Positions 10,315 through 25,225 of a DNA stretch of 64,000 nucleotides are shown here, piece after piece; the first letter of the stretch is position 1, and every line of letters starts with the position of its first letter. Below the pieces are notes generated by a model. That model was not told where the DNA came from and searched no databases. It saw only the letters and a list, made by a program, of their open reading frames with translations. A program made the position numbers and the translations under genes. Where the stretch lies: assembly GCF_058153355.1 (NCBI RefSeq), contig NZ_CM177019.1; one strand, 5' to 3'.

Positions 10315-12306
10315 TTACTCAAGCAAGGTTAATAATTGTTCGCAAAGCAAAACGCAGTTATTCATTGCTTCTCCCCGTGCCTCGCCTTCTGTATTACGAA
10401 ATTGTCCCAACACATGTGCCAGCCGATAAAAACCCATCGCGGTGAGTTCATTGACCAGCAACTCTGACTGACTAATGGCACTCTGTTCCTGATAGCGCCA
10501 GCCATTATGGAGCAGTTGAATAAGCAACGCCTGACAGCGCATCAGTAACTGATGAGTGGTAGACGGTACAGGCAGAACGCTGGCAGAAGGTAGCGGTGCC
10601 ACAGGCGCAGTTTCTGCGTCCAGCGCCCAGGCGCGGGTTTTTGTCATCATCACCCGTGGTTCCAGTGTCAATTGCCCCTCTACAAAACTGACAAAGCCAG
10701 AAACCAGACTCACGGGGTCGTCTGTTTGTTGTAACAGAGCTGCCATGCGTTCAACGGCAAAAGGAGAACAGGCAGATGCCGGAAGGGATAACGTCAGCAC
10801 ATTATCGTCACCTTCGCCACTGATTACCTGCGCATCCAGTGTCTGCCGACTGCTGTCCCAACCGAGTGAAATGCACTCTTCTACTGGCAGAATAAATAAG
10901 TTATCGACCTGGTTAAGCTGTCGTATGGCGGCTGGCGGACGTTGGCGTAAATATTCCCGCAAAGCCACAATGCCCGGCTGGCGCAGTGGTGCGCTCAACA
11001 TTTGCCAGGCATCAGGCGACAGCGGAACAACACTGCTTAAGCGGTTGCGGGTAGCTAATAGCAACTCGCCATCAGCACTGCGTTTTGCTGCTTGTGAAAC
11101 AATTTGCCCACCCGCCAGCGCGCCAGCCTGAAAACTAAACAGCCGCCGTTTTGCCGCTGGAGAGTTATCCTGTTCACTTCTCGGCCAACTGCGCGAAAGA
11201 TGCAAAATACTGCCGGTGTCGGGATCGGTGAACCAGATGCGTAAACCATACCGCTCATTATCCTGCCAGCAACGCATACCTAGTGACACCAGCCGCAAAT
11301 GATCAAGCTTTGCTTCGCCAGCAATGCCTGCGCCAATGACCGTGCGCCACGGTATGGGCGGTACTTCACCGACACTGTCACGTCGCGCCATCTCTTGTGC
11401 ACTGTTCAAGCGACTGGTTAACGCCGCAAGCTGGCACAAGCATTTTCCGGCATGATAGTAGCTGGCGCGGGCGTGGAAGGCATCAACGCTTGCCCGTAGC
11501 TGTCGTAGTGATTCACTTACCCAACGCCAGTTGCAGCGTTCCGCCGCTTGCTGCGCGCGGCTGAAAGCGGCCTCGTAGTGGATTGACGGTTGGCTGATGC
11601 CTCCCAGCCATAATGCCTGACTTAATTGCTGAACATATTGACGACATGCTTTACCTTCGTCGCTGGAAAACGGATCGTCAGATGATGTGACGTGTTCACT
11701 GTGCATCTGCCAGATCAAATGAGTAAATTCTGCTTGTTGATTTTTGGCCTCGACGAAGGCCTGCACAGCCAGTGCTACGTGTTCACACAGCGTTCCTTCA
11801 ATACAATCACAACGGGCGAAACGAATGCTGCTGCGGGAATAAAAACGCACATCGCTCATCGGTAAGCGGGCAGAGGGAATTTCGCCCGGCGTGCAGAACA
11901 ACTCAATGGTGATGCCTTTAGCGACCAGCGCCTGCGCGCGTTTGCGCGTGGTATTGGGCAGGGTAGCCAGTTCTTCCTGCCAGATTGCCGGATCCCACTC
12001 TTCTTCTTTTTCCGTAGGCTGGGCGGTGGCACAAAGTCGTTGATAACTTAACACCAGCATCACGCGATGACGGCACATGCCGCTGGCCCCGCAGCTGCAT
12101 TGAGCCTCTTTCAGTGCCTGACTGTTCGCCAGCCGGGTACGGACACCGTCACTGAACGTGGCGATTAAAGCGCCGTTCTCATGGCAGATTTCCGGGACAT
12201 TGCCATTTTCCAGTTCCTTAAGGCTGCGCTTCACAAAACCAGCATTGCTTAACGCCGTCAGGGCCTGCGGTGTCAGTTCTAATAATTCCGGACGTAGTGA
12301 ATTCAT
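10315..12306 (-). CDS. yehQ: SWIM zinc-finger protein YehQ with two CxC…CxH motifs
   Basis: The ATG at 12306 overlaps the yehP TGA (ATGA). The SWIM signatures are CSCGASGMCRH and CDCIEGTLCEH. The track ORF extends upstream to 12411 inside yehP, and I treat that as a spurious extension. Confidence 0.8.
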   Translation of the reverse strand: MNSLRPELLELTPQALTALSNAGFVKRSLKELENGNVPEICHENGALIATFSDGVRTRLANSQALKEAQCSCGASGMCRHRVMLVLSYQRLCATAQPTEKEEEWDPAIWQEELATLPNTTRKRAQALVAKGITIELFCTPGEIPSARLPMSDVRFYSRSSIRFARCDCIEGTLCEHVALAVQAFVEAKNQQAEFTHLIWQMHSEHVTSSDDPFSSDEGKACRQYVQQLSQALWLGGISQPSIHYEAAFSRAQQAAERCNWRWVSESLRQLRASVDAFHARASYYHAGKCLCQLAALTSRLNSAQEMARRDSVGEVPPIPWRTVIGAGIAGEAKLDHLRLVSLGMRCWQDNERYGLRIWFTDPDTGSILHLSRSWPRSEQDNSPAAKRRLFSFQAGALAGGQIVSQAAKRSADGELLLATRNRLSSVVPLSPDAWQMLSAPLRQPGIVALREYLRQRPPAAIRQLNQVDNLFILPVEECISLGWDSSRQTLDAQVISGEGDDNVLTLSLPASACSPFAVERMAALLQQTDDPVSLVSGFVSFVEGQLTLEPRVMMTKTRAWALDAETAPVAPLPSASVLPVPSTTHQLLMRCQALLIQLLHNGWRYQEQSAISQSELLVNELTAMGFYRLAHVLGQFRNTEGEARGEAMNNCVLLCEQLLTLLE

Positions 12307-13439
12307 GACTGAAGATTCTCCGCAAGCCAGGTAGCCAGTTCGCCCGGCGTCATTGCGGCTATTTGTGCGCCGACATTTACCAGCGCCTGGGCTGTATCGC
12401 GGTCGTAGCAAGGTGTTGCGGTGCTATCGAGCGCTGCCAGTCCCAGCACTTTGATGCCGCTCTGGACACACTTTTTCACCTGATGCGTCAGCAATGATGA
12501 TGAACCCCCTTCATAAAAATCGCTCACGAGGATGATGACGCTTTTCGCTGGTTGTTCAATAAGTTGCCGACCATATTCCACGGCGCTGGCGATATTGGTC
12601 CCGCCATCCAGCTGTACTTTCATTAATAACTCTACCGGATCGGCAACGTCTGCCGTGAGATCGACGACGCTTGTGTCAAAAGCGACCAGATGGGTGCGGA
12701 TACCGGGTAACTGCCATAAACAGGCCGCCATCACCGCTGAGTGGATCACCGAATCGACCATTGAGCCGCTTTGATCAACCAGTAACACCAGCTGCCATTG
12801 TTCGCTATGGCGTTTAATTCGGCTGTTAAAGCGGGGGGATTCGATATACAACTTGCCGTGTTGCGGGTGCCAGTGTTGCAGGTTGGCGCGCAGAGTACTT
12901 TTGAAATCGAAATTACGTGCCAGTGGAATAAATGAGCGGCGACGGCGATCGCGGACACCTGAAAAAGCCTGACGAACTTCCTTTGCCAGTCGCGCCATAA
13001 TTTCTTCAACAACCTGGCGCACTATCCGGCGGGCGGCAGCCAGCACTTCGGGATTCATCAGATGTTTGGTGTGCAAAACGGCGCGTAGCAGGCTTTCAGA
13101 AGGCTGCATACGCTCCAGCACGTCGAGATTCGTCACCACATCTTCAATGCCGTAGCGCAGTACGGCATCGCTTTCCAGCCGCTCAATCACCCGTTGCGGA
13201 AATAGTGTGTGAATACTGTTGATCCACTCAGGGGTGGTGAGATTTGAGTCACCTAATCCACCGGAGCGTTCACCACGCTGGAGCCGTTCAGGATCGCGCC
13301 CATACAGCCACTCCAGCGCGTGGTCTATCTGCCGGGCATTGTCATCCAGCCCACAAAGCGTCGTTTCTGCCGCTTCGCCAAGAATTAATCGCCAGCGTTG
13401 TAGCTCACGAGTGGTCAGAAGATCGTTCAGTTCAGACAT
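12303..13439 (-). CDS. yehP: von Willebrand factor A (VWA) domain protein YehP
   Basis: The ATG at 13439 (MSELNDLLTTREL…) overlaps the yehM end by 8 nt. MIDAS-like residues are LLVDQSGSM … GGTNIASA … LVSDFYEG. Length is 378 aa. Confidence 0.85.
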   Translation of the reverse strand: MSELNDLLTTRELQRWRLILGEAAETTLCGLDDNARQIDHALEWLYGRDPERLQRGERSGGLGDSNLTTPEWINSIHTLFPQRVIERLESDAVLRYGIEDVVTNLDVLERMQPSESLLRAVLHTKHLMNPEVLAAARRIVRQVVEEIMARLAKEVRQAFSGVRDRRRRSFIPLARNFDFKSTLRANLQHWHPQHGKLYIESPRFNSRIKRHSEQWQLVLLVDQSGSMVDSVIHSAVMAACLWQLPGIRTHLVAFDTSVVDLTADVADPVELLMKVQLDGGTNIASAVEYGRQLIEQPAKSVIILVSDFYEGGSSSLLTHQVKKCVQSGIKVLGLAALDSTATPCYDRDTAQALVNVGAQIAAMTPGELATWLAENLQS

Positions 13440-15711
13440 GGAAAACTCCCCAGTGTTGCAGTGATGCCAGTGCCTGCTGTTCGAGTTGTTGATGATGTGC
13501 AATGGCTTGCGGTGGACAATGCAACGGCATTTGCAGCGCTGAAACGGGAAGCTGTGCGAGCTGGTAATGCTCAAGCACCTGATGCGCCAGCGTCCCGCGT
13601 TCTCGTGGTGGTAGCCAGGCCATCGCCGCGCGTAAATCGGGCAGGGCGTTAATAAAATCGTCGTCACTCAGTTGATTTAAATGACTACTGAAACCGGCGA
13701 TAAATGCCGGCTGACAGGCCAGTTGATGGCGGGCCAGCGCCAGCAAACCGTGCAGCGCCTCGCCAGATTGTGCCGGGGATAATTGTGCCAGCATCGTCAG
13801 CGCCGCTTCGGCACTGGCGTTGGGATGTTCCAGACGCATCAGCGCGCCAAGGGCCGCACCGCGATCCAGCGCTGGGGCATGAATCGCCTGACTGCGACGT
13901 TCCAGTAAGGCTACCGCCGCAGAAAGCGAAACGCCGGGTAAATTAACGCCGCTATTTAGATCGCGCAGGATATGGCAAAGCGCCTGCCAGCTATGCAGGT
14001 GAGCGTGAAACTCCTTCTCATCCGGCCTGCCGTTGGATTCACATAGCCACAGTGTGCGATCGATAGCCGCGTATAACGTCGTCTGTAATATCTGCGCGCC
14101 TTGCATACCGCTGATTTCATCGAGCTGCCACAAGGCGTAAAGCACTTCCAGCGCCTGGCCCATTTCGGCAAACTGATTTTCCTTGGCGATTAATAATGTG
14201 AGTTGTTCCAGTAATTGCTGACTGAAGGACGCCAGACCCGCTAACGCGGCCTGGCTAAGACATGTGGTGATGCCGCTGATTCCACCCGCGTCCAGCATAT
14301 CGGCTTCTAATTTATTGCGTGCGGCCTCCTGGAGTGTGGCACCAAAGCAGGCGGCTTCAATCAATGCCGCATGTTGGCTAAGTGGCTGGGTTAATGTCCA
14401 GCGTTCTTCACCGTTGCCCGCCAGCGTCAGTGTACTTCCTTGCTCGCGCACAATGCCGGGAATCTCCAGTATTACCAACTGATGTAGCACCTGACTTTGC
14501 GCCAGTCCATCGGGGGTAAAGCGATTTAAGGTAAGCTCCGCCGGAAGAGAGATTCCGGTACGTTCCAGTTCGTAGGTGACATCTTTTGGCAGAGGTGGCT
14601 GTGGCGTCGAGGGGGCAAGTTTACCGAATCCGTCACCTGCTAATGTGTCTATCAACGTTACCAGTATCGGATCGGTATCGGGATGAATAACGTCGCGATA
14701 GCTCCACGGCAACGGCGCATTCAAGGCTTCTTTAATCAGCGAGCCTGCTATGGCATCCAGCCAGTCAGTGCGTAACGGTAGTGTATGACCGCGCAACTGT
14801 GCCAGCGCCATCGCATGTAAATGAGCGGCAGCCATATCCGCGGTTGAAGCAGGCAATTTGTGCTGGCGCAAACGGGTAAGAACCGTTTTTAGTAGTTGTT
14901 CACCTGCCTGCTGCAAGCCCCACCGCCAGCACCAGTTTTGCCAGACCGGGGCAGGCATTCCTGAAAGGTATCCTGCCAGCACATCAAGGCGCTTTTCACT
15001 GTATGGCGTGAGATAGCAACCTGTAACGGCATCATCCTGTGAGAGCAATTCTGGCTTGTTAATTTCTTGCGGGCATTCGCGCCACATTTTTGCCAGTGCC
15101 GGAGCGTGCCAGCCTCCGCAGACGACTAATACGTCGCCATTATTTTGCTGCATCGCCCATGCAATCCAGCGGGCCATAAAGGCTTCGCGCTGACGATTGA
15201 GTGCATCGCCGGAGGCGTCGCCCCGCAGTTGTGCAAAATAGTGCGCCAGTGCAGAGGGTAATATAGTTTGCTGGCTTTCATCTTCGAACAAGTGATCCCA
15301 CAAGGTGTCGCTGTTATCCATGCGGGTGGCACGCAGCAGAAAGGCCTGGCTTTCCTCTTGCATATCAGGCGAATCATCCTCTTCTTCACTTTGTGCCCAG
15401 CAAGGCAAATCGATGAAGTAAGTTTGTGCCTGAATACGACGTGCGGCTTGTAGCGCCTGCCACTCCGGCGAAAATTCAGCAAATGGCGTCCAGGCACCAC
15501 GCCCGGGGGCCGCACCGTCCTGATACTGGCAATAACTGTAAATAGCTACCGGAAGCTGGTGGGCTAACAACAGTTCGTCTACCCGGTCATTAAAATCAGC
15601 CGGGCCTTCAATCAACACGTATCGTGGCCGCTGGCTTTCGATTAACGATTTCACCAGCCGGGCGCAGGCCGGACTATGATGCCGGATGCCGACAATTAAC
15701 GGCTCGCTCAT
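13432..15711 (-). CDS. yehM: 759-aa uncharacterised protein YehM (DUF5682-like, largely helical)
   Basis: The ATG at 15711 (MSEPLIVGIRHHSPACARL…) lies 10 nt after the yehL stop and is preceded by GAGGAAA. I recognise no catalytic motif. Confidence 0.8.
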   Translation of the reverse strand: MSEPLIVGIRHHSPACARLVKSLIESQRPRYVLIEGPADFNDRVDELLLAHQLPVAIYSYCQYQDGAAPGRGAWTPFAEFSPEWQALQAARRIQAQTYFIDLPCWAQSEEEDDSPDMQEESQAFLLRATRMDNSDTLWDHLFEDESQQTILPSALAHYFAQLRGDASGDALNRQREAFMARWIAWAMQQNNGDVLVVCGGWHAPALAKMWRECPQEINKPELLSQDDAVTGCYLTPYSEKRLDVLAGYLSGMPAPVWQNWCWRWGLQQAGEQLLKTVLTRLRQHKLPASTADMAAAHLHAMALAQLRGHTLPLRTDWLDAIAGSLIKEALNAPLPWSYRDVIHPDTDPILVTLIDTLAGDGFGKLAPSTPQPPLPKDVTYELERTGISLPAELTLNRFTPDGLAQSQVLHQLVILEIPGIVREQGSTLTLAGNGEERWTLTQPLSQHAALIEAACFGATLQEAARNKLEADMLDAGGISGITTCLSQAALAGLASFSQQLLEQLTLLIAKENQFAEMGQALEVLYALWQLDEISGMQGAQILQTTLYAAIDRTLWLCESNGRPDEKEFHAHLHSWQALCHILRDLNSGVNLPGVSLSAAVALLERRSQAIHAPALDRGAALGALMRLEHPNASAEAALTMLAQLSPAQSGEALHGLLALARHQLACQPAFIAGFSSHLNQLSDDDFINALPDLRAAMAWLPPRERGTLAHQVLEHYQLAQLPVSALQMPLHCPPQAIAHHQQLEQQALASLQHWGVFHV

Positions 15712-15721
15712 GCATCTTTCC

Positions 15722-16810
15722 TCACGGCAGGCGGTGGCGAGCTTGATAATAAGCCTGCCAGTGAGCTTCTTTATGTGTAGCGACACGTTGTTCGAAGTAA
15801 CGGCGCAGACGTGCGCGATCTTCTTCGTTATCTTTGACGATGGTTCCGGCAATACAGTCCACCAGGTCGGCTGGCTCCCCCGCGCGATTCGCTAAAAACC
15901 AGGCGCGGACGCCCACGGCGTGGGCCACGTTAACGGCTTCAGCGGTGGACATAATCGCTGTAAGGGTATCCATTGACGTTTTCTTTTCGCCGTTGGCACG
16001 CAGATCGCGGAAGGTGCGTACCAGTAACTCAAGTACCGCGTCAGGCACTTTATGCGGAATACCGCTATGGGCCAACAAACGCGCCGAAGCACTGGCGACC
16101 AGTTCCAGCTCCTGGGCGAAATCCATAATCGGAAAAACCGTTTCAAAATCGAATCGGCGTTTTAGTGCCGCGCTCATTTCATTAACGCCGCGATCGCGGG
16201 TATTGGCGGTGACAATAATATTAAAGCCTTCCCGCGCATAGAGCTGACTGGCTTCACCAGTGAGTTCCGGCACCGTCATAACCCTGTCAGAAAGCATACC
16301 TAACAGACAGTCTTGTACTTCCAGTGGTGTACGCGTTATCTCTTCAAAACGGACAATTTTGCCGTCGCGCATTCCCTGGTAGAGCGGGGCAGGGACCAGC
16401 GCTTCCGTTGACGGACCATGATTAATAAGCAGGGCGTAGTTCCAGCCGTACTTGATTTGATCTTCGGTGGTAGATGCGCCGCCCTGGATAGTTAACCCAG
16501 CATCGCCGCTAATAGCGGTTGCCAGTAATTCAGACAGGAGAGATTTTGCGGTGCCAGGTTCCCCCACCAACATCAAACCGCGCCCGGTAGCAAGAGTGAC
16601 TAACATGCGTTCGACAGCGGAGGGACTAATCACGACTTTACGGCTGATATTTTGCGCGCTATCGCCAAGAATAAAAGAACGGGCCGCAGGCAAACTTAAC
16701 TGCCAACCGGGCGGGCAAGGTGCGTTATCATTTTGCTTTAATTTTGCCAGTTCATCGGCGTATAACACAGCGGCAGGCGGACGCTGCAGATGATTATTCT
16801 GCGGTGACAT
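15722..16810 (-). CDS. yehL: MoxR-class AAA+ ATPase YehL
   Basis: Contains Walker A LMLVGEPGTAKS and a MoxR-like C-terminal segment of the AAA core (VTANTRDRGVNEMSAALKRRFDF). Length is 362 aa. Confidence 0.88.
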   Translation of the reverse strand: MSPQNNHLQRPPAAVLYADELAKLKQNDNAPCPPGWQLSLPAARSFILGDSAQNISRKVVISPSAVERMLVTLATGRGLMLVGEPGTAKSLLSELLATAISGDAGLTIQGGASTTEDQIKYGWNYALLINHGPSTEALVPAPLYQGMRDGKIVRFEEITRTPLEVQDCLLGMLSDRVMTVPELTGEASQLYAREGFNIIVTANTRDRGVNEMSAALKRRFDFETVFPIMDFAQELELVASASARLLAHSGIPHKVPDAVLELLVRTFRDLRANGEKKTSMDTLTAIMSTAEAVNVAHAVGVRAWFLANRAGEPADLVDCIAGTIVKDNEEDRARLRRYFEQRVATHKEAHWQAYYQARHRLP

Positions 16811-16921: not shown

Positions 16922-17002
16922 AAAAAAACCTGCTGGTGAGGCAGGTTCTTTTATTTACTACTTTGACGATAACTTGCTGATTGTGCAACATTTCGTACCA
17001 AC
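16922..17002 (-). ncRNA. orzO: Orz-like antitoxin sRNA (predicted ~81 nt)
   Basis: Minus-strand promoter: TTGCAA (17037-17032), 17-nt spacer, TATAAT (17014-17009). The predicted start is the G at 17002. The first 18 nt (complement of 16985-17002) pair with 17151-17168 of the zorO leader. The RNA ends at a stem aacctgc/gcaggtt followed by a U7 tract (16922-16947). Confidence 0.65.
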
Positions 17003-17240: not shown

Positions 17241-17330
17241 ATGGACACGCTGACACAAAAGTCAACCGTGCTCATTGCCGTACTGGAGTTATTAGTGGCT
17301 CTGTTGCGGTTGATTGATTTGTTGAAGTAA
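17241..17330 (+). CDS. zorO: 29-aa hydrophobic type I toxin, ZorO-like
   Basis: Manual translation gives MDTLTQKSTVLIAVLELLVALLRLIDLLK*. A strong SD (AAGGAG) lies 5 nt upstream. The predicted leader is ~174 nt. The peptide is nearly identical to the EHEC ZorO peptide as I remember it. It is below the ORF-track cutoff. Confidence 0.7.
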   Translation: MDTLTQKSTVLIAVLELLVALLRLIDLLK

Positions 17331-17383: not shown

Positions 17384-17704
17384 CTATTTTTCTATTTGTT
17401 GGATGAATATATTTTGTAGTTCACGATTAAAAATTGCTATTACAGTTTTAGGTGATTCACCTCGTAATTTACGCTCATCAATAAATTCATCTCTTATATA
17501 AATCAACGCATCATTTATTAGCGGGTCGACATCTTCTCGATCACGTTGATGAAATGTTGGATGTAGCCGGAATCGCTCCAACCGGTAGACGGAACCAGTA
17601 AATAATTCAGAGCATTTATGGATCTCAAGTCTGAAGGAAAACGGATCTTCAGGTACAGGGACTTCATAATCATAAGTAGCGACCAGCTCTTTTTGCACGA
17701 TCAT
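17384..17704 (-). CDS. yehK: 106-aa uncharacterised protein YehK
   Basis: The ORF lies 60 nt downstream of yehI on the same strand. The sequence is recognised as YehK. I recognise no domain. Confidence 0.75.
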   Translation of the reverse strand: MIVQKELVATYDYEVPVPEDPFSFRLEIHKCSELFTGSVYRLERFRLHPTFHQRDREDVDPLINDALIYIRDEFIDERKLRGESPKTVIAIFNRELQNIFIQQIEK

Positions 17705-17764: not shown

Positions 17765-20700
17765 TTAATGGAAAATGACGTCAGGTGCGCTTAACGCTTC
17801 ACTCAAATCAAACGTATCGAGTTCGGCAAAAGTGACAGATTTATTGTCACGGTACACTCGAAGAGAACGGAAGCTCATTAGCGCTTTGCTATCAGCACTG
17901 TAGTGGTTAAAACCGGGTGAAAACTTAAGGACCAGCCGATACTCGCCCAGGTCATAGACACATGCGTCCTCAAAACCTGACTCCCAGCCTTTGTATCGCA
18001 TTCCCATAAGTTGCCCAACGGTTGCGGATTTACCTTCCCAGCGAGTCAGGCTGTTACTGGCTGACTCGTCAGGTGTGAGCAGCACTGTGCGCCGCATCAA
18101 CTGGCGAAAAGGCGGCATAATTTCGTAATCGGCAAAAACCTGTGCAAATTCACTGCGCATTTCTGCTGTCATTTCTAACGGGTGGGCAATGCCAATCAGA
18201 GCATCCGCAGGCAGGTCAATTGGCTCATCTTGTGCGTTGCAGAACTCCCCCTCAGCGGCCACGCGAAAGGCGTTGAGTAAACGACGCGGTTCATTTGCCG
18301 GATAAACCGCCCATATTAATCGCTGAGTAACCAGGCGAGTAAAGGGATGATTAACAAACAGAGAATGAAAATCTGCCAGCGACCAGCGTCGGGTGGTGCG
18401 TAGGGCAGTTTCAAGACGCGGGAGCAGGTTTTTGCTCACCTGAGTGGCATCTTTTTTTAGCCCTTTTAGTCGGGCCAGTGCCTCGGGTGCTTTCAGCTGA
18501 TCGTCATCGGCGCGCAACCGGGGAACACTTTTCTGGCGAACGTTTTGCTGATCAAAGATAACCGGGTTGAGGTTTTCATCGAAGCGAACGGTAAACTGCC
18601 GGGGTCCAAAATCAAATATCAACGCCTGCGGATCATCCAGGCCCAGTGTTGGGACTAATCTGTCCGCTAACTCTTCCTGGCTTAGTCCACGATTTTCTGC
18701 GACCACCTGAAGAAATTCCGCCGCGTTATCACGTAAGGGACGGGATTTCGCCCGTTGCGATATATGATGCAGCTGTATCAGCGCCATATCATTATTCATC
18801 AGGGTAAGTATGTTCAGGCCACTGACGGCGCGGGCAGATTTGCCTTCCTGTGGCCAGGCGAGGATCTGTGTTGTCAGATCCCGAGCCGTGCTTTCGTCAC
18901 CAAAGAGACTTAACGCCAAAAAAGCCCAGTTGTCTTTTGCGGGGGCGCCAGCCTGTTGCCAGGCGGTGAAGAGATCCCAGGCAAAAGCGGCCAGCGTTTG
19001 TGGCTGGCAGAACGTTTTCAGTTGTTCCAGCCCACAATAAAAACGTCCGCCCTGGGTAAAGCGCAGCATTTCGCCGATAATTTCCAGAGCATCATCAGTA
19101 ACATGTTGATTATTCGTGATAATTCTCGGTCTGGACCACATTGTCGGATGCCAGAAATCAGGGGCTTTGGGAATGCGTGCCGGGTAAATGTCCATTGGAC
19201 CCTGTTTAAGTAATTGCTCCAGGGCAGGCCATACATCTGTATGCTGCCAGCGGTTTGCCACGGTTTGCAGTAATTCGCCATGCCCTTGTTCATACAGTAA
19301 ACGCAGAGCGCTGAGTGCCGCTTCGCTGTTATCGCCAGACCTGGCAAAGATTAATGGGATCAGCGCCGTAGCCGTATGCTCCGGCCATTGTAAAATCCAC
19401 TGGCGAGCCAGATTACGCTGGCCCGCAAAACGATGCCAGACGCGGGCAACGGGCAGCGCCAGTTCTGTTGCGCCAAAATGAATCAGCAGCGGAAATATCT
19501 CTTTGGGATGTCGGGCAAAGGCGGTGATTAATCCGGGCAAAGCATCGGTACCCAGGACACTTAACAGATATTCTACCCCGGTGTAATGAAAATCAGCCGC
19601 GACAATTTGTTGCCAGCACGATACCGCCATTTCGCGCGGCATTTGCGCGATAAGATACAGGTTCCATACTCCCCAACGCTTTTCATCAGTGTAATTAAAT
19701 TTGCGTTGGAAAGTTCGCCACCCCTCCATCAACGCAACACTATCTTGTGCCAGTAATGCGCTGGCGGCCTCTTCCCGGTAGTGTTTATTTTCATTCTGTT
19801 TTGCCTGATAATTGAGCAATCTTCCTACTGAAGTATGTGTCTCTAGTTGATCGGTATCCAGAGCATCCAATTGTCCTTTGAGAATAAACTCATTAAACTT
19901 CCACCTGTGATCTTCAAAACCTAATTCCCGCAAGAAGGTATCCGCCCCTCTGTTAGCAAGACGTTCGTCAAAAGACATGGCGCTAAAATGGTCAATTGCA
20001 GTTTGCTGTTCCGGCGTCCAGTGTTTATTCGGCGACCTGTACGCTTGCGGTACAAGCGTAAGTTCAGGTAGCGAAAAGTGAGTTATGGAAGCCTTTTTCC
20101 TGCCACGCCACGGTGGTGAAACGAGGATTTCAGGCAGACTACTGTTATCGGTGCTATCAATAACCGGTTTTGGCGAAGCCGATAAATAACTATTCACCAC
20201 TGCCCGGGCTTGAGTACTTAACGACGGGATCACCTCTTCTGCCAGTTGTGGCTGCGATGCCATCAGCGTTTGTAACAGCGTACGCCAGTATTCATCACGT
20301 GCTTTTTGCTGTGCAGGCAGCTTTTTGTCTTCGATGATAGGATAACCAGGGCGCGTAGGGGGGGCTTTTAACGCCAGTAGTTCTGCCAGTGCGGCGAGCG
20401 TCGCATGGGGAAAGTTTTTACTGTATTTAGCCACACGCTGCAGGCTGGGTTTGTTTTTATCGGCAACTAACAGCAAGATGCGAATAACTTGCGGATGGTT
20501 AATTTGTACCAGCAGGCTACCGCAATCTTCTTTATGGGCATACATCGCGAGGCGTGGAACGGCTGCAATTCCTTGTTCGCGCAAAAGGGCGGCGCAGGCC
20601 GCGTAGCCGAAGTGGTTTTCATGCGACATGTAGCTGGCTTCGCGATCGCTAAATATATCCTGGCTCCAGTAGCGTTCGAGTTTTCTCACCGCTCTGGGGT

Positions 20701-21421
20701 CATTAGCAACAACTTTTAACCACTCCTTAGAATGAAAATGAGTCCGCGGGCATTCAAGGCCTACCAACTCATTGGCGATTTCTGGTTTCTCCGGGAGGAT
20801 GAGTGCAATAAAAGGACGGCGAACTTGGGGTAGTCCTGGCAGTGCGGCAATGAGTTTGTCGGCGCAACGCTGCCAGCAGCTTTCCTCTGCCAGAGAGAGA
20901 GGCTTACGCAGTCGGAGATCGAATTCGTTATAGGTTTCTGAGCGATAACCATAACCATAGCCATAGTCCTCCTTCTGATACTGCAATGTTACTACCAGAG
21001 GATCGTTCTCATAACACCGCGCAATAAACTGGCGTGCAATCACCACCTCAGTCGCATATTCCAGCCCCTCTTGTTGGACGATTTCGTCGAGCAACTGTTG
21101 GCTGTCATTTTGCGCGATACAGGCTAGCGCCGCCATTGTCCGGGCCGGAATTGAGGGTTTGTGCTCGCCGATCAAGTTGATGGCTTGCGTAATGGCCGAC
21201 TGCCACTCCAGTGAAAAATTTTCATAACGCCAGACAATGTTTTTTTTCTTCTCAGCAATGTGTAGCAATTTATCACCCAGTGTCTGGATGAGGCTTTCAG
21301 TGATAACAGGCACCGGTTCGCCCGGCCAATTGCGATGGCTGAGTGGTGTTTTGCCTTTTTTATATTTCAGTTCCAGTTGGGCGTTATCCGCCAGCCACGG
21401 TAATTCCTTGTCCATGCTCAT
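17765..21421 (-). CDS. yehI: YehI, a ~1,216-aa MolR-family protein with a DUF4132-type C-terminal region and no N-terminal WGR domain
   Basis: 1218-aa ORF (alternative ATG at 21415). The C-terminal block FDFGPRQFTVRFDENL…RRWSLADF…FADYEIMPPFRQL is shared with the two upstream paralogs. The start lies 3 nt after the upstream stop. Confidence 0.85.
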   Translation of the reverse strand: MSMDKELPWLADNAQLELKYKKGKTPLSHRNWPGEPVPVITESLIQTLGDKLLHIAEKKKNIVWRYENFSLEWQSAITQAINLIGEHKPSIPARTMAALACIAQNDSQQLLDEIVQQEGLEYATEVVIARQFIARCYENDPLVVTLQYQKEDYGYGYGYRSETYNEFDLRLRKPLSLAEESCWQRCADKLIAALPGLPQVRRPFIALILPEKPEIANELVGLECPRTHFHSKEWLKVVANDPRAVRKLERYWSQDIFSDREASYMSHENHFGYAACAALLREQGIAAVPRLAMYAHKEDCGSLLVQINHPQVIRILLLVADKNKPSLQRVAKYSKNFPHATLAALAELLALKAPPTRPGYPIIEDKKLPAQQKARDEYWRTLLQTLMASQPQLAEEVIPSLSTQARAVVNSYLSASPKPVIDSTDNSSLPEILVSPPWRGRKKASITHFSLPELTLVPQAYRSPNKHWTPEQQTAIDHFSAMSFDERLANRGADTFLRELGFEDHRWKFNEFILKGQLDALDTDQLETHTSVGRLLNYQAKQNENKHYREEAASALLAQDSVALMEGWRTFQRKFNYTDEKRWGVWNLYLIAQMPREMAVSCWQQIVAADFHYTGVEYLLSVLGTDALPGLITAFARHPKEIFPLLIHFGATELALPVARVWHRFAGQRNLARQWILQWPEHTATALIPLIFARSGDNSEAALSALRLLYEQGHGELLQTVANRWQHTDVWPALEQLLKQGPMDIYPARIPKAPDFWHPTMWSRPRIITNNQHVTDDALEIIGEMLRFTQGGRFYCGLEQLKTFCQPQTLAAFAWDLFTAWQQAGAPAKDNWAFLALSLFGDESTARDLTTQILAWPQEGKSARAVSGLNILTLMNNDMALIQLHHISQRAKSRPLRDNAAEFLQVVAENRGLSQEELADRLVPTLGLDDPQALIFDFGPRQFTVRFDENLNPVIFDQQNVRQKSVPRLRADDDQLKAPEALARLKGLKKDATQVSKNLLPRLETALRTTRRWSLADFHSLFVNHPFTRLVTQRLIWAVYPANEPRRLLNAFRVAAEGEFCNAQDEPIDLPADALIGIAHPLEMTAEMRSEFAQVFADYEIMPPFRQLMRRTVLLTPDESASNSLTRWEGKSATVGQLMGMRYKGWESGFEDACVYDLGEYRLVLKFSPGFNHYSADSKALMSFRSLRVYRDNKSVTFAELDTFDLSEALSAPDVIFH

Positions 21422-21424
21422 TCC

Positions 21425-24400
21425 TTATTCAAACAGGGCTTCGATGTCGTTAATTAACTCGCTAGCGGTGATGTCATCGAGTGCGGAGAACTGCGCTTCC
21501 TGTGTTGAATTAATCCCCCAGCCATAGCTTTCTGCTTTGCCTTCCCATAGCCACAGCTTGCTTAAGAGTTGCTCGGCACTGAGTTCGGCTGGCGACATAC
21601 CAACTGCAAATCCTTCATCGATTTCCATGATTAATGACCAGCGGCCCAGAGGTTTGATCATCCAGCCGATCCAGCCACCGTCCTGCGGTTCACCACGCAT
21701 CCAGCCTTTATTCGCCAGCCCCATTACCCGACCGCTCGGGCATTTTCTGCCTGCCCAGCGGGTCAATTCGCTGGCATTGCGCTCGGTTTCTGTCAGGGCG
21801 TAACTGTTACGGTCGAGCTGGCGGAACGGCGGTAGCAGTTCGTAGTCGGCAAAAAGCTGACCAAAGGCGGCAGCATCCGTGGGTGATATTTCCAGAACGT
21901 GAGGAATGCCAACAGAGATATCGCCTTCCGGCAGGGTGAAAAGATCATCGTCAGCGGTGCTGTAGCTGTTATCTTCCGCCACACGGAAGCACGCCAGTAA
22001 CTGGTTGTCTGCGCTATAAATGCCCCAAATCAGACGGCGGGTTAAGTGGCAGACCAGCGGATGCTCAACCAGAAAGAGCTGAAAGTTTTCTGGCGACCAG
22101 CGGCGGCGCAGGCACATGGCGGATTCCAGCCTTGCCACCTGCTGGGCGGCAACGGTACGCGCATCTTTTTTCAGCAGTTTGTAGCGGTTAACTGCATCGT
22201 TCGCTTGAGTTTCATCATCGCTTTTGTTCGGTTTAGGCAAGTCTTTCAGGCGGCTGCCGGAAGCATCACGCACAAACGGTTTTAAGGTTTCATCAAAGCT
22301 GACGGTGAACTGCCGTGGCCCGAAATCCAGCAGCAGCGAACCGTTATCATCCAGACCGAGATCCGGTGCTAACCGGTCTTCAAGCTCCGCCACCGTGAGT
22401 TCGCGGCTCTCGGCAATGTCGGCAATTTTTTCTTTTGCCCGCTCCTGTAATGCTTTGAATTTCAGTTTCTGGGCGATGCCGTTAAGCTGCATCAGGGCGA
22501 TATCACTACCGATAGCAGCGAGAATATCCAGCCCGACGGTGGCGCGTTTATGCTGGGATTCACCAGGCCAGGCGCGAATCAAAGGCGTCAGTTTGCGGGC
22601 GGTATCATCGTTGCCGAGAACACCTAACGCAGTGAACGCCCAGCTTTCTTTCGACGGTGCGCCAGCGGTCTGCCAGGCGGTAAACAGATCCCAGGCAAAT
22701 TCAGCCAGTGAGTCGGCGGTACAGGCATCTTTCACCTGCAATAACCCCGCATACAGAGCCTCTTCCTGAGGGAAGCGGAGCATTTCACCGAGGTGGAGGA
22801 GGGCGTTATCTGGCAGTGATTGGGCGTTTGCTTTTAATACCGGGCGTGTCCAGAGCGATGGCTGATAAAAGGCCGGAAGTGTCGGGATTTTAGTCGGGTG
22901 ATTATCTAAGGGATCGAGCGCAAGTAGAGCGTTCACCGCATCGGTTACTTCCGGCTGGTTATAACGCTGGGCGATTTCTTGCAGTAATGACGGATAACCA
23001 CTTTCAATCAACATACGTAAGGCGGCGCGGGCGTTATCCTGGGCTTCACCAGCTTTGCCGAGTGCCGCAGGCAACAGGCCGATAATGGCATGTTCCGGAT
23101 ATTTCAGCAGCCAGGTGCGGGCGTCTTGTCGTAGAGTTTTGAGTTTGTTAAAGGCGCGGGCGACGGCAGGAGCCAGTTCCGTTGCGGCAAAATAATTAGC
23201 AACCGCAAAACCTTCTTGAGGGTAGCGTGAAAACGAGTGTAGAAAACCACTCATACCTGCCAGTCGCAAATAAAGCATGACAGGTTTTACCGCGGTATGC
23301 GGCTCTTTGCTGAGAAACTCCCATAGTTTAATCGCTGTTTGCATAGGTAAAAAGGGAAGTGAGTTGAGATGCCACTCCCCCTGATACGGTGCATGGTGGG
23401 CTTTAAACATTTGGATGAGTGTAGCGAAGTCCTCACGTTCCCATGCGTCAATTGCCGAGTCAGAAGCGCCGATATATTTATATGTGTCAAAATCCCAGCG
23501 GCGATACCCCAGCGAGTAAAGGAAATCTTTAGCACCTTCACCTGGCTTATGCGATTCCCAGTCCCAATGAGTTTGAAACTCTTTTGCTTCTGTGTCGGTT
23601 ATTGTGCATATGGATTTGAGTTTGAGCGGTGCTAAATCCAACACCGGAATCGTCGATTTTTTCTTTTTCGAAAGCCAGGGAGGTAAGACTAATACGGCTG
23701 GCAGTAGAGCGGCGCAGGCATGGTTTGACGGTTGTATCAGTTGTTGCTGGCATGATTTCAGCACTTCAACTGCGGCTGTCGAGAGCCAGGGAGTGACCTG
23801 TTCTGCCAGTGCCGGTTGCGAGATAAGCATCGTCATTAGCATAATGCGCCAAGTATTCTCTTCTTTTTGCGCAAGAAGTTCCGCCAGTGCCGCCAGTGCT
23901 GCGTGTGGGAACGCAGCGCAAGCTTTCGTCATCCGATCGTGACAGCGTTTAGTTTGCCCGGCTACACGTATGAGCAGTGTTAATGCGAACGGATGATTGA
24001 TATGACGCAATACATCTGCGCAGTAGTCACTTGCGGCATAGGGAGCAAATCTGGGCAGGGCTGCAACACCTTGCTCCTGTAATACGGTGGCTGACAATAT
24101 CGCACCACAATAGTAATCATCAAAAATGGCATATGGCTCGTGATATTTTTCTAATGAGGCAAGAATGTGCTCATCAGTCGCCACTATTTTTAGCCACTCA
24201 AGCGAGGGTAATTTTTTTTTCCCCAGTAGACGCTGGGCAATTTCATGTGCAATTTCTGGTTTTTCGGGTAATAACAAAGCAATTAATGGTTGCCGCCATT
24301 CTGGAATATGTGGAATTGCGGCAATAAGTTTTTGTGCACATTTTTGCCAGAGAGACTCTTCCGCCAGTGATAAATGTTTCCGTAGGCGTAATTCAAAACT

Positions 24401-25213
24401 GGAATATTGCTGCAGGTTATCAGGTGCAATACCAGACGGCAGAATAATAATGGTATTATTCGCATAATCCCATTCAATATCAATCTGTTGAAGATGTATT
24501 ACTACATCAGTAGCATATTCCAGGCCACCTTCCTGAACGAGCTGATCCATAACATCCTCACGCTCTTTATATCTCGTGCACTTCAGTTCAAGTGCCGTGA
24601 GTACAGCCATTACTGGTGATGGTAACTGTGTTGTTTTCAGGCAGTCGATCTGACTGAGCGCCTGGGAGATGGCGTTTTGCCATTCTAAAGAACAGGCGCT
24701 GAAGTCAAATGTGGCTGTTTTATTATCCCGTTGCAACACGCTACAGGCTAAGCGGCGTAACTGGGTCAATTCGTCTGCTTGCTGAACAGGAACTCCGGGA
24801 AAGCGGCGATGGCTTAACGTGGTGTGTACAACTTCGGGCGGAAAAACGACAGCAATATCTTTCGCCAGCCACGGTAAAACATCATCTGTATTTTTGTCAG
24901 CCACACGGGCTTCTGCTACGCAAAAGGGTTGTTCCTGAATAATGGTGGATAAGGCCGCTACCTTGAGAGAATCCGTTACCGTTTGGGAAGGTTGCAAAGA
25001 ATTATCCTTCGCTTGCCCCACATACCCCTTCTTCACCTTCTCCGCAATCAGCCTCAGTTCCGCTTTTTCCGCCGCCGCAGCATCAGCAAAGCTTTTTACC
25101 TGGCTTTGCCCGTTGGTACTGACTTTGCCCCAACTAATATGCAGCTCGTTTCCCTGTTGCTCCACTGCCCAGAATTTATGTGATTTTTCGTCCTGATAAA
25201 TATAGGTTTTCAT
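21425..25213 (-). CDS. 1262-aa MolR/YehH-family protein: N-terminal WGR domain, helical-repeat middle, DUF4132-type C-terminus
   Basis: The N-terminus MKTYIYQDEKSHKFWAVEQQGNELHISWGKV…AEKVKKGY has the WGR signature. The C-terminal block LDFGPRQFTVSFDETLKP…RRWSPENF…FADYELLPPFRQL is conserved. The start lies 12 nt after the upstream paralog. Confidence 0.85.
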   Translation of the reverse strand: MKTYIYQDEKSHKFWAVEQQGNELHISWGKVSTNGQSQVKSFADAAAAEKAELRLIAEKVKKGYVGQAKDNSLQPSQTVTDSLKVAALSTIIQEQPFCVAEARVADKNTDDVLPWLAKDIAVVFPPEVVHTTLSHRRFPGVPVQQADELTQLRRLACSVLQRDNKTATFDFSACSLEWQNAISQALSQIDCLKTTQLPSPVMAVLTALELKCTRYKEREDVMDQLVQEGGLEYATDVVIHLQQIDIEWDYANNTIIILPSGIAPDNLQQYSSFELRLRKHLSLAEESLWQKCAQKLIAAIPHIPEWRQPLIALLLPEKPEIAHEIAQRLLGKKKLPSLEWLKIVATDEHILASLEKYHEPYAIFDDYYCGAILSATVLQEQGVAALPRFAPYAASDYCADVLRHINHPFALTLLIRVAGQTKRCHDRMTKACAAFPHAALAALAELLAQKEENTWRIMLMTMLISQPALAEQVTPWLSTAAVEVLKSCQQQLIQPSNHACAALLPAVLVLPPWLSKKKKSTIPVLDLAPLKLKSICTITDTEAKEFQTHWDWESHKPGEGAKDFLYSLGYRRWDFDTYKYIGASDSAIDAWEREDFATLIQMFKAHHAPYQGEWHLNSLPFLPMQTAIKLWEFLSKEPHTAVKPVMLYLRLAGMSGFLHSFSRYPQEGFAVANYFAATELAPAVARAFNKLKTLRQDARTWLLKYPEHAIIGLLPAALGKAGEAQDNARAALRMLIESGYPSLLQEIAQRYNQPEVTDAVNALLALDPLDNHPTKIPTLPAFYQPSLWTRPVLKANAQSLPDNALLHLGEMLRFPQEEALYAGLLQVKDACTADSLAEFAWDLFTAWQTAGAPSKESWAFTALGVLGNDDTARKLTPLIRAWPGESQHKRATVGLDILAAIGSDIALMQLNGIAQKLKFKALQERAKEKIADIAESRELTVAELEDRLAPDLGLDDNGSLLLDFGPRQFTVSFDETLKPFVRDASGSRLKDLPKPNKSDDETQANDAVNRYKLLKKDARTVAAQQVARLESAMCLRRRWSPENFQLFLVEHPLVCHLTRRLIWGIYSADNQLLACFRVAEDNSYSTADDDLFTLPEGDISVGIPHVLEISPTDAAAFGQLFADYELLPPFRQLDRNSYALTETERNASELTRWAGRKCPSGRVMGLANKGWMRGEPQDGGWIGWMIKPLGRWSLIMEIDEGFAVGMSPAELSAEQLLSKLWLWEGKAESYGWGINSTQEAQFSALDDITASELINDIEALFE

Positions 25214-25225
25214 TGCTAATTCCTT

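What the first reader, a model, noticed from the sequence alone, without database searches (positions are those of the whole stretch)
10315..16810. yehL-yehM-yehP-yehQ is tightly translationally coupled, implying a stoichiometric complex
Directly visible:
- The yehL stop (15722) and yehM ATG (15711) are 10 nt apart, with GAGGAAA between them.
- The yehP ATG (13439) lies 8 nt inside the yehM 3' end.
- The yehQ ATG (12306) overlaps the yehP TGA as ATGA.

The longer Met-initiated ORFs in the six-frame track (806, 454 and 698 aa) would each overlap the preceding gene by 100-230 nt, so they are probably artefactual. YehL has an atypical acidic pair after the hydrophobic strand (IVRFEEITR) where Walker B is expected. 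YehM (759 aa) has no motif I can recognise, yet it sits between the ATPase and its VWA partner.
Basis: partly seen in the sequence, partly recalled or inferred. Interest (0 to 1): 0.6.

Follow-up and report, generated by a model that had tools for sequence, protein, structure and literature searches.

The report
Coupled yehLMPQ MoxR–VWA operon

Summary
The yehL-yehM gap is 10 nt, the yehM/yehP overlap is 8 nt (ATGTCTGA) and the yehP/yehQ overlap is 4 nt (ATGA). RefSeq annotates the same starts in the closest genome and in K-12, so this part is not new.

The arrangement is old. In about 70 loci from Proteobacteria, Myxococcota, Actinomycetota and Acidobacteriota the order is DUF4132(YehI)-YehL-YehM-YehP-YehQ. 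Junctions are tight in 60/73, 65/72 and 63/69 cases, mostly a 4-nt overlap. A distant clade appears to fuse YehM and YehP into one protein.

Co-function and physical association are therefore well supported. "Stoichiometric" is not. The E. coli MoxR-VWA pair ravA-viaA overlaps by 7 nt, yet about 350 RavA and 90 ViaA molecules per cell are reported.

New points:
- YehM (DUF5682) models as an N-terminal TIKI/TraB/ChaN/EreA-type domain plus a helical solenoid. Its GxxH...E...R...GxxH residues are invariant.
- The YehL Walker B "VRFEE" is invariant in 74 orthologs.
- The YehP metal-binding (MIDAS) site is invariant.
In Escherichia, yehK and a zor-orz toxin-antitoxin insert separate them from yehL.

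Function remains inferred. Interest is moderate.

The parts
15722..16810 (-). yehL, 362 aa, MoxR-type AAA+ ATPase (YehL subfamily)
   Evidence: Pfam AAA_5 at 117 bits against a cutoff of 22. Same CDS annotated. Named as a MoxR subfamily in PMC3893208.
16541..16564 (-). YehL Walker A, GEPGTAKS (residues 83-90)
   Evidence: Read. Invariant in 74 orthologs.
16340..16354 (-). YehL variant Walker B, V-R-F-E-E (residues 153-157): Glu-Glu in place of Asp-Glu
   Evidence: Aligns to the midasin 'DE'. V, R, F, E and E are each 74/74 in orthologs.
15709..15724 (-). yehL-yehM junction: TGA, 10-nt spacer, ATG. The GAGG Shine-Dalgarno motif overlaps the stop codon.
   Evidence: Same geometry in K-12. Tight in 60/73 orthologous loci.
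15721..15765 (-). Predicted mRNA hairpin that pairs the yehL stop and the yehM Shine-Dalgarno motif with upstream yehL coding sequence
   Evidence: MFE -39.7 kcal/mol, z = -2.86. 88% of cells pair across 9 Enterobacterales, but there is no covariation. Suggestive only.
13432..15711 (-). yehM, 759 aa, DUF5682
   Evidence: Pfam DUF5682 at 323 bits. AF2 model with pLDDT 83.5 and pTM 0.74.
14992..15711 (-). YehM N-terminal alpha/beta domain (about residues 1-240), TIKI/TraB/ChaN/EreA-like, with invariant R10, H11, E35, E83, R175 and H202
13432..14991 (-). YehM C-terminal region: a small alpha/beta insert and a helical HEAT/ARM-like solenoid. Boundaries are approximate.
13432..13439 (-). yehM/yehP 8-nt overlap, ATGTCTGA. 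GGAG lies 6 nt upstream of the ATG.
   Evidence: Overlapping in 63/72 orthologous loci, 53 of them by 4 nt.
12303..13439 (-). yehP, 378 aa, CoxE-type VWA protein
   Evidence: Pfam VWA_CoxE at 241 bits.
12762..12776 (-). YehP MIDAS motif D222-x-S224-x-S226, completed by T281 and D307
   Evidence: All five residues are 74/74 in orthologs.
12303..12306 (-). yehP/yehQ 4-nt overlap, ATGA
   Evidence: The 4-nt overlap occurs in 58/69 orthologous loci.
10315..12306 (-). yehQ, 663 aa: two SWIM zinc fingers, helical bundles and a beta-rich region
12067..12099 (-). YehQ SWIM finger 1, C70-x-C72...C78-x-H80
   Evidence: Conserved in 68-69 of 70 orthologs.
11779..11811 (-). YehQ SWIM finger 2, C166-x-C168...C174-x-H176
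   Evidence: Conserved in about 52 of 70 orthologs.
17765..21421 (-). yehI, 1218 aa, DUF4132.
   Evidence: Pfam DUF4132. Lies directly upstream of yehL in most of the 80 loci. YehI-YehL junction is tight in 27/60, with 11 at -4.
21425..29023 (-). Two further intact paralogs carrying WGR + DUF4132 (21425-25213 and 25226-29023)
   Evidence: Gaps of 3 and 12 nt between the three large genes.

Best explanation
yehL-yehM-yehP-yehQ is one transcription unit. Its internal starts lie at or within 10 nt of the preceding stop, so ribosomes finishing one gene can start the next.

The four proteins, together with the DUF4132/WGR proteins encoded upstream, are parts of one conserved MoxR-type machine:
- YehL is the AAA+ ATPase. 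It has an invariant Glu-Glu Walker B.
- YehP is its VWA partner. Its intact MIDAS site would grip an acidic group on a client.
- YehM supplies a helical scaffold and a TIKI/TraB-type domain with a complete set of catalytic-type residues. It probably cleaves or otherwise hydrolyses something on the client.
- YehQ (two SWIM fingers, possibly OB-like barrels) and the WGR/DUF4132 proteins are the likely client, sensor or targeting parts.

Shown here: the gene geometry, its conservation, the domain identities and the residue conservation. Inferred: actual coupling, physical assembly, hydrolase activity and the client. Subunit ratios cannot be read from the junctions.
For: - Junction geometry. The same starts appear in independent annotations.
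- No sigma70-like promoter on the coding strand inside 10315-16810.
- Gene order I-L-M-P-Q holds in the genome loci (L003-L082) and the metagenome loci (L085-L102).
- Tight junctions in 60/73, 65/72 and 63/69 loci.
- The overlap length differs between lineages (-8, -1, -16 or -1, -4), so the tightness is kept rather than a particular sequence.
- DUF5682-VWA_CoxE fusion proteins P0231, P0267 and P0168. Two of them are seen in two assemblies each. P0231 and P0267 are 42% identical over their full length and share a linker of about 40 aa.
- YehL catalytic motifs, including VRFEE, are invariant. YehP MIDAS is invariant.
- YehM fold and motifs. Family definition from PMC6254334.
- MoxR-VWA pairing, and stimulation of RavA by ViaA: PMC3893208.
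- A MoxR-vWA pair in which the vWA protein carries a peptidase has been described in jumbo phages: PMC7824862.
Against: - No expression, ribosome-profiling or interaction data exist for these proteins. Only three papers in the searchable library name two or more of the genes, and none studies their function.
- The locus is H-NS/StpA-silenced in K-12 (PMC3686432). It decays in some lineages: K-12 yehQ is truncated and yehH is a pseudogene, and the Shigella flexneri locus is shattered (L050).
- Four-nt overlaps are the commonest junction in bacterial operons in general, so they do not by themselves prove a complex.
- Start codons in the orthologous loci were chosen by my own heuristic.
- The fusions were not checked at DNA level. 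Their closest metagenomic relatives are unfused.
- The TIKI assignment rests on fold and motifs. No sequence-profile method linked YehM to that superfamily.
- A Shine-Dalgarno motif is not enriched at L-M junctions in orthologs (17% against 12% background).
Confidence: 0.6

Rival explanations
1. The tight junctions are ordinary operon compaction. The four proteins act in one pathway but not as a stable complex, and the overlaps do not set their relative amounts.
For: - ravA-viaA overlap by 7 nt, yet RavA and ViaA are reported at about 350 and 90 molecules per cell (PMC3893208 abstract).
- Some orthologous loci have loose junctions: L-M gaps of 144-437 nt in some Variovorax and Burkholderia, and M-P gaps of 79-781 nt in L029, L065, L035 and L074.
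- Each window start has its own GGAG or GAGG, so independent initiation is possible.
Against: - The order and tightness are kept across at least four phyla while the sequence of the junction changes.
- YehM-YehP fusion proteins exist.
- MoxR ATPases are known to bind their VWA partners (PMC3893208).
Confidence: 0.2
2. The module is a nucleic-acid-sensing conflict or defence system. The tandem, variable WGR/DUF4132 proteins and the SWIM/OB protein sense foreign or damaged nucleic acid. MoxR-VWA acts as the switch and the TIKI domain of YehM is the proteolytic effector.
For: - One to three tandem DUF4132 paralogs per locus, several with WGR.
- SWIM fingers and OB-like matches in YehQ.
- MoxR-vWA pairs are core parts of predicted conflict systems and of an experimentally supported threat-sensing pathway (bioRxiv 10.64898/2026.09.08.750141).
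- A toxin-antitoxin insert lies next to yehL.
Against: - No PADLOC match for any of the six proteins.
- The bpMoxR model scores below its cutoff (18.6 against 27 bits).
- The locus is nearly universal and chromosomal in E. coli, in 5353 of 5426 genomes.
- It is essentially absent from viral contigs and rare on plasmids.
- Its flanks are housekeeping genes.
- The eLife 2020 survey of MoxR-vWA conflict systems does not mention SWIM, WGR or YehL.
- The YehQ model is only moderately confident in its beta region.
Confidence: 0.12
3. The module is a maturation or metal-cofactor insertion chaperone for a specific enzyme, in the manner of CoxD/CoxE, NorQ/NorD, CbbQ/CbbO or the AAA+/VWA chelatases. In this reading the YehM domain binds a cofactor, as ChaN binds haem, and is not a hydrolase.
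For: - YehP belongs to the CoxE-type VWA family.
- The upstream paralogs correspond to MolR, a gene first defined by a molybdate-utilisation phenotype (Lee et al. 1990, as cited in PMC7824862).
- MoxR proteins are generally described as maturation factors (PMC3893208).
Against: - No candidate client enzyme is conserved next to the module. The flanks differ between genera.
- YehM keeps the full 2His/Glu/Arg set that marks the enzymatically active TIKI members.
- No chelatase family was detected by sequence.
Confidence: 0.08

Closest known systems
RavA-ViaA (the other E. coli MoxR-VWA pair)
   Same: An AAA+ MoxR ATPase gene followed by a VWA gene in one operon with overlapping ends (7 nt). The VWA protein binds and stimulates the ATPase (PMC3893208).
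   Different: - It has two genes, not four or five.
- It has no DUF5682, SWIM or DUF4132 partners.
- YehL belongs to a different MoxR subfamily and has Glu-Glu in place of Asp-Glu in Walker B.
- In yehLMPQ a large gene lies between the ATPase and the VWA gene.
CoxD-CoxE, NorQ-NorD and CbbQ-CbbO type MoxR/VWA maturation systems (properties from my own knowledge)
   Same: YehP hits the CoxE-type VWA family and has an intact MIDAS site. The likely logic is that the MIDAS site grips a client and the ATPase remodels it.
   Different: - No client enzyme is encoded nearby.
- There is an extra subunit with a hydrolase-like TIKI domain.
- As I recall, the known complexes are about six ATPase subunits to one VWA protein, not equimolar.
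TIKI / TraB / PrgY / GumN / ChaN / erythromycin-esterase superfamily
   Different: - No sequence-profile method links DUF5682 to these families.
- The domain is fused to a helical solenoid of about 500 aa.
- It is always encoded between a MoxR gene and a VWA gene.
MoxR-vWA-beta-propeller ternary conflict systems (Kaur et al. 2020; the Esr pathway, bioRxiv 2026)
   Same: A MoxR-vWA pair is combined with large, variable partner proteins.
   Different: - The bpMoxR model scores below its threshold.
- No beta-propeller, kinase or FHA parts are present.
- The locus is chromosomal and nearly universal in E. coli.
- The system is not mentioned in that survey.
Jumbo-phage MoxR plus peptidase-vWA pair (PMC7824862)
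   Same: A MoxR ATPase is paired with a vWA protein that carries a peptidase domain. The fused YehM-YehP clade is laid out the same way.
   Different: The peptidase type is different and the context is viral. There are no SWIM or DUF4132 partners.

Membership tests
MoxR / AAA_5 AAA+ ATPase (YehL) | Scores above the curated threshold of the family model | tested here: met
   AAA_5 at 117.3 bits against a cutoff of 22.
MoxR / AAA_5 AAA+ ATPase (YehL) | Walker A GxxGxGK[ST] | tested here: met
   GEPGTAKS, 74/74 in orthologs.
MoxR / AAA_5 AAA+ ATPase (YehL) | Acidic Walker B pair after a hydrophobic strand (canonically hhhhDE) | tested here: inconclusive
   An acidic pair is present and aligns to the midasin 'DE'. 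However it is E-E, not D-E, and an Arg sits in the strand (V-R-F-E-E). The motif is invariant in 74 orthologs. Whether it supports hydrolysis needs an assay.
MoxR / AAA_5 AAA+ ATPase (YehL) | A neighbouring VWA gene | tested here: met
   yehP lies two genes downstream here and in all loci with enough flank.
MoxR / AAA_5 AAA+ ATPase (YehL) | Hexameric ring with ATPase activity | not testable with these tools
   Needs purified protein.
VWA / MIDAS protein, CoxE type (YehP) | Family model above threshold, and the MIDAS residues DxSxS...T...D | tested here: met
   VWA_CoxE at 240.9 bits against a cutoff of 26.4. D222, S224, S226, T281 and D307 are each 74/74.
TIKI/TraB/ChaN/EreA superfamily (YehM N-terminal domain) | Parallel beta-sheet core flanked by helices (the TIKI fold) | tested here: met
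   [not shown]
TIKI/TraB/ChaN/EreA superfamily (YehM N-terminal domain) | 2His/2Glu catalytic set plus a conserved basic residue | tested here: inconclusive
   H11, H202, E35, E83 and R175 are invariant in 95 homologs of 29-64% identity. Their order and spacing match YbaP.
TIKI/TraB/ChaN/EreA superfamily (YehM N-terminal domain) | Detectable by sequence models of the member families | tested here: not met
   No TraB, ChaN or Ere Pfam hit at E <= 10. No PDB sequence hit with a profile. hhalign against YbaP gave nothing. I therefore file the domain as TIKI-like by fold and motif, not as a member of any existing sequence family.
SWIM zinc finger (YehQ) | The CxCxnCxH signature, and the family model above threshold | tested here: met
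   SWIM at 30.1 bits against a cutoff of 19.6. There are two copies: the first is conserved in 68-69 of 70 orthologs and the second in about 52 of 70.
Translationally coupled operon | The downstream start overlaps or lies within a few bases of the upstream stop, on the same strand | tested here: met
   Spacings of +10, -8 and -4 nt. Conserved in orthologs.
Translationally coupled operon | No internal promoters or terminators | tested here: inconclusive
   A consensus scan found no sigma70-like promoter on the minus strand inside the cluster. Terminator-like hits are weak and not above the shuffled expectation (22 against 14 +/- 4). A consensus scan cannot exclude weak or non-sigma70 promoters.
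Translationally coupled operon | Translation of the downstream gene depends on translation of the upstream gene | not testable with these tools
   Needs nonsense-mutation and reporter experiments. The predicted hairpin over the yehM Shine-Dalgarno motif lacks covariation.
Known anti-phage defence systems (PADLOC 2023) | Any component matches a defence-system model | tested here: not met
   No hits for YehL, YehM, YehP, YehQ, YehK or YehI.
MoxR-vWA-beta-propeller ternary systems | bpMoxR model above threshold, and a beta-propeller partner | tested here: not met
   bpMoxR at 18.6 bits against a cutoff of 27. No beta-propeller partner is encoded.

The most novel reading that the evidence does not exclude
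YehL, YehM, YehP and YehQ, together with the WGR/DUF4132 proteins, form a previously unrecognised kind of ATP-driven protease machine. A MoxR ring and a MIDAS adaptor would deliver a client to a TIKI-type active site on YehM. Targeting or triggering would come from nucleic-acid-binding modules: WGR, SWIM and OB-like barrels. That would give at least five y-genes, found in nearly every E. coli genome, a mechanism. It would also add a regulated protease class unrelated to Clp, Lon or FtsH.
Probability: 0.2. Interest if true: 0.7.

Novelty: new variant of a known kind. Interest (0 to 1): 0.4.

Why it matters
The coupling observation adds nothing to the existing annotation. The locus does matter, though. 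It is one of only two MoxR systems in E. coli (PMC3893208), it is present in 5353 of 5426 complete E. coli genomes, and the same five-gene module occurs in several phyla, yet I found no published function for it.

Three results give concrete, cheap experiments for at least five genes of unknown function:
- DUF5682 carries a TIKI-type domain with an intact catalytic-type residue set.
- The YehL Walker B is an invariant Glu-Glu.
- YehM and YehP appear fused in a distant clade.

The ravA-viaA comparison also warns against reading subunit ratios from gene overlaps.

Tried and rejected
- PADLOC on six proteins gave nothing. NCBIfam has no curated family for YehM, YehP, YehQ, YehI or YehK.
- I searched metagenome contigs for the fused YehM-YehP form. 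All 18 relatives found were unfused, or fragments too short to tell, so the fusion stays unverified at DNA level.
- I tested whether an mRNA hairpin hides the yehM Shine-Dalgarno motif. It folds well in the window. RNAalifold did not recover it, and it shows no compensatory changes.
- Shine-Dalgarno enrichment at orthologous junctions is clear only for M-P.
- Viral contigs and plasmids gave no sign of a mobile element.
- The eLife 2020 conflict-system survey does not cover this architecture.
- One look-up of a Massilia homolog's contig found nothing on record.

Full report
WHAT IS THERE

On the minus strand, yehL runs from ATG 16810 to TGA 15724-15722. yehM starts at ATG 15711, ten bases after the yehL stop. 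A GAGG overlaps the stop codon and ends 8 nt before the ATG. yehM ends at TGA 13434-13432. yehP starts at ATG 13439 inside ATGTCTGA, an 8-nt overlap, with GGAG 6 nt upstream. yehP ends at TGA 12305-12303. yehQ starts at ATG 12306, the ATGA overlap, with GGAG 11 nt upstream, and ends at 10315.

They begin with TTG, GTG and TTG, and they overlap the preceding gene by 131, 236 and 109 nt.

The window is an Escherichia genome that is 90-95% identical to most E. coli over this stretch. The best match is 97.8%. PGAP annotates exactly the short starts in that best match. K-12 MG1655 has the same +10 / -8 / -4 geometry.

ARE THE SHORT STARTS RIGHT?

Yes, on present evidence.
- In an alignment of 26 YehM homologs called by other annotators, Met1 is invariant and conservation starts at residue 6.
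- Across orthologous loci, the frame upstream of the short start closes before the length of the window's extension in 29/73 (YehM), 27/72 (YehP) and 22/69 (YehQ) cases. In 15 loci fewer than 10 codons are open upstream of yehM.
- In Serratia fonticola, NCBI's independent gene calls give gaps of 12, -1 and -4 nt.

IS THE TIGHT PACKING MORE THAN LOCAL CHANCE?

A scan of one genome per species with a YehM profile returned 80 loci. They come from:
- Enterobacterales, Burkholderiales, Xanthomonadales-type Gammaproteobacteria and a Desulfuromonadaceae MAG;
- Myxococcota;
- Actinomycetota;
- Acidobacteriota.

Six-frame ORFs searched with the window's proteins show the same order almost everywhere: one to three DUF4132 genes, then YehL, YehM, YehP and YehQ. 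Eighteen further metagenome loci show the same order wherever enough flanking sequence is held.

I chose start codons by nearness to the position projected from the alignment. This is my own heuristic and is a caveat. Escherichia loci and two damaged loci were left out. The junctions then fall within -30 to +20 nt as follows:
- YehL-YehM: 60/73 (fifteen at -4, eleven at -1, eight at +10).
- YehM-YehP: 65/72 (53 at -4).
- YehP-YehQ: 63/69 (58 at -4).
- YehI-YehL: 27/60 (eleven at -4).

The M-P overlap is 8 nt in Escherichia, 1 nt in Klebsiella and 4 nt in most other lineages. So tightness is retained, not a particular sequence.

Exceptions exist. L-M gaps of 144-437 nt occur in some Variovorax and Burkholderia. 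M-P gaps of 79-781 nt occur in a few loci.

DOES THIS IMPLY A STOICHIOMETRIC COMPLEX?

Co-function and physical association are well supported.
- MoxR ATPases are known to pair with a neighbouring VWA protein, and ViaA binds and stimulates RavA (PMC3893208).
- YehL is the named type of one of the seven MoxR subfamilies (same paper).
- Among 2263 DUF5682 clusters, three distant representatives (P0168, P0231, P0267) are DUF5682-VWA_CoxE fusions of about 1120-1180 aa.
- Two of these fusions are each seen in two assemblies.
- P0231 and P0267 are only 42% identical, yet both are fused through a linker of about 40 aa. That is longer than a simple frameshift across an overlap would give.

I could not verify the fusions at DNA level. 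Their closest metagenomic relatives are unfused.

The word "stoichiometric" is not justified. The other E. coli MoxR-VWA pair, ravA-viaA, overlaps by 7 nt, yet about 350 RavA and 90 ViaA molecules per cell are reported (PMC3893208 abstract). From my own knowledge, CbbQ-CbbO-type machines are about six ATPase subunits to one VWA protein.

Coupling itself is inferred from geometry.
- A consensus scan finds no sigma70-like promoter on the coding strand inside the cluster.
- A hairpin that pairs the yehL stop and the yehM GAGG with upstream coding sequence folds better than shuffles, with z = -2.86.
- That hairpin is pairable in 88% of cells across nine Enterobacterales, but it shows no compensatory change and was not recovered by RNAalifold.
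- In orthologs, a Shine-Dalgarno-like motif is enriched before yehP (57% against 11% background). Enrichment is weaker before yehQ (25% against 10%) and absent before yehM (17% against 12%).

THE PARTS

YehL. It scores 117 bits on AAA_5. Its GKIVRFEEITR aligns to the Walker B 'DE' of the midasin AAA modules. In 74 orthologs from all the phyla above, these motifs are invariant:
- GEPGTAKS (Walker A);
- V-R-F-E-E-(I/V/L)-T-R, where the sixth position varies conservatively (I 68, V 5, L 1);
- T-A-N-T-R-D;
- K-R-R.

The Glu-Glu Walker B is therefore a fixed signature of the subfamily, not a local defect. Whether it hydrolyses ATP needs an assay.

YehP. It is a CoxE-type VWA protein. Its MIDAS residues D222, S224, S226, T281 and D307 are invariant.

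YehM. It is Pfam DUF5682.
- An AlphaFold2 model from 26 homologs has pLDDT 83.5 and pTM 0.74.
[quoted passage not shown] It defines active members by a parallel-sheet core, a 2His/2Glu set and a conserved basic residue.
- In 95 DUF5682 proteins of 29-64% identity, the invariant polar residues lie almost all in the N-terminal domain: R10, H11, E35, H51, E83, D101, R175 and H202.
- They form G8-x-x-H11 ... E35 ... R175 ... G199-x-x-H202. This is the same order and nearly the same spacing as GSIH ... E ... R ... GALH in the E. coli TraB-family protein YbaP.
- Sequence-profile methods did not link the families, and I could not inspect the model's coordinates.

I therefore call the domain TIKI-like by fold and motif. 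I predict, but have not shown, a hydrolase (peptidase or esterase). The remaining 500 or so residues are mostly a HEAT/ARM-like solenoid, which is a typical scaffold.

YehQ.
- It has two SWIM fingers. The first is conserved in 68-69 of 70 orthologs and the second in about 52 of 70.
- A moderately confident model (pLDDT 76.6, pTM 0.41) adds helical bundles and a beta-rich middle region.

Upstream genes.
- Three intact large genes lie upstream with gaps of 3 and 12 nt. Two of them carry WGR + DUF4132, and the third is yehI.
- In Escherichia they are cut off from yehL by yehK, which has no homolog in the other genera, and by a zor-orz type I toxin-antitoxin insert.

HOW IT MOST LIKELY WORKS (INFERENCE)

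By analogy with other MoxR-VWA machines, the YehP MIDAS site grips an acidic group on a client and the YehL ring remodels it using ATP. YehM scaffolds the assembly and acts on the client through its TIKI-type site. YehQ and the WGR/DUF4132 proteins are the client, sensor or targeting parts.

A MoxR-vWA pair in which the vWA protein carries a peptidase has been described in jumbo phages (PMC7824862). The fused YehM-YehP clade is laid out the same way.

There are two functional rivals.
- A nucleic-acid-sensing conflict system. For: the WGR, SWIM and OB-like modules and the tandem variable paralogs. Against: no PADLOC hit; the locus is present in 5353 of 5426 E. coli genomes; it is essentially absent from viral contigs and rare on plasmids; and it has housekeeping flanks.
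- A cofactor or metal insertion chaperone. For: the CoxE-type VWA domain, the ChaN-like fold and the old molR phenotype. Against: no conserved client gene, and an intact catalytic-type residue set in YehM.

STATE OF KNOWLEDGE AND VERDICT

I found almost no literature. Only three papers in the searchable library name two or more of the genes.
- yehL and yehM are de-repressed in an hns/stpA mutant (PMC3686432).
- yehL appears in an in-vitro transcription table (PMC3141248).
- K-12 yehP contains a sequence that promotes +1 frameshifting in reporters (PMC2790909).

What is worth following up is the machine itself: an old, conserved and unstudied variant of the MoxR-VWA theme with a probable hydrolase subunit.

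Noticed in passing
window 16922-16995 (-) and 17241-17330 (+): The yehK-yehL spacer is 573 nt here, 306 nt in K-12 and 1185 nt in the closest genome. It holds one zor-orz type I toxin-antitoxin copy. There is an OrzO-P sRNA (Rfam RF02083, 90.6 bits) with its own promoter-like site at 17037-17009 and a terminator hairpin at 16947-16927. On the other strand lies a 29-aa toxin ORF, MDTLTQKSTVLIAVLELLVALLRLIDLLK. This matches the location reported by Fozo et al. 2010 (PMC2887945). The terminator lies about 110 nt upstream of the yehL ATG, so yehL must have its own promoter.
   Followed up: yes
window 17765-29023 (-): Three intact tandem DUF4132 genes of 1265, 1262 and 1218 aa, the first two with an N-terminal WGR domain, lie 12 and 3 nt apart. 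In K-12 the first two correspond to the fragment yehF and the pseudogene yehH (the old 'molR').
   Followed up: partly
window 12606-12608 (-), YehP residue 278: This genome has Asp in the loop LDGGT, next to the MIDAS threonine. All 73 other orthologs aligned, K-12, three other Escherichia genomes checked and the 97.8%-identical closest genome have Gly. This could be a damaging change or a sequencing error.
   Followed up: partly
window 12566-12581 (-): [quoted passage not shown] The change weakens the internal Shine-Dalgarno-like GGAG that the paper treats as the stimulator.
   Followed up: partly
L002 (K-12) 19101-20945; L050 (Shigella flexneri); L005; L004: The locus decays in some Escherichia and Shigella lineages. 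K-12 YehQ is 614 aa against 663 here, which is a C-terminal truncation that would remove part of the last helical bundle. E. coli YehQ clusters range from about 416 to 709 aa. The S. flexneri locus is broken into many short ORFs. One E. coli genome has a shattered yehI and another has a split yehM.
   Followed up: partly
window 17384-17704 (-), yehK: YehK (106 aa) has no Pfam, NCBIfam or PADLOC hit. It was found only in the Escherichia and Shigella loci. In Klebsiella, Serratia and all other genera yehI is followed directly by yehL. It looks like a lineage-specific insert into the old yehI-yehL junction.
   Followed up: partly
window 15721-15765 (-): A 12-bp hairpin (CUCAC-U-GGCAGGC / GCCUGCC-GUGAG) covers the yehL stop codon and the start of the yehM Shine-Dalgarno motif. 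Its z-score against shuffles is -2.86. The inner 7 bp are kept in nine Enterobacterales, with only G-U changes and no covariation.
   Followed up: yes
[not shown]
   Followed up: no
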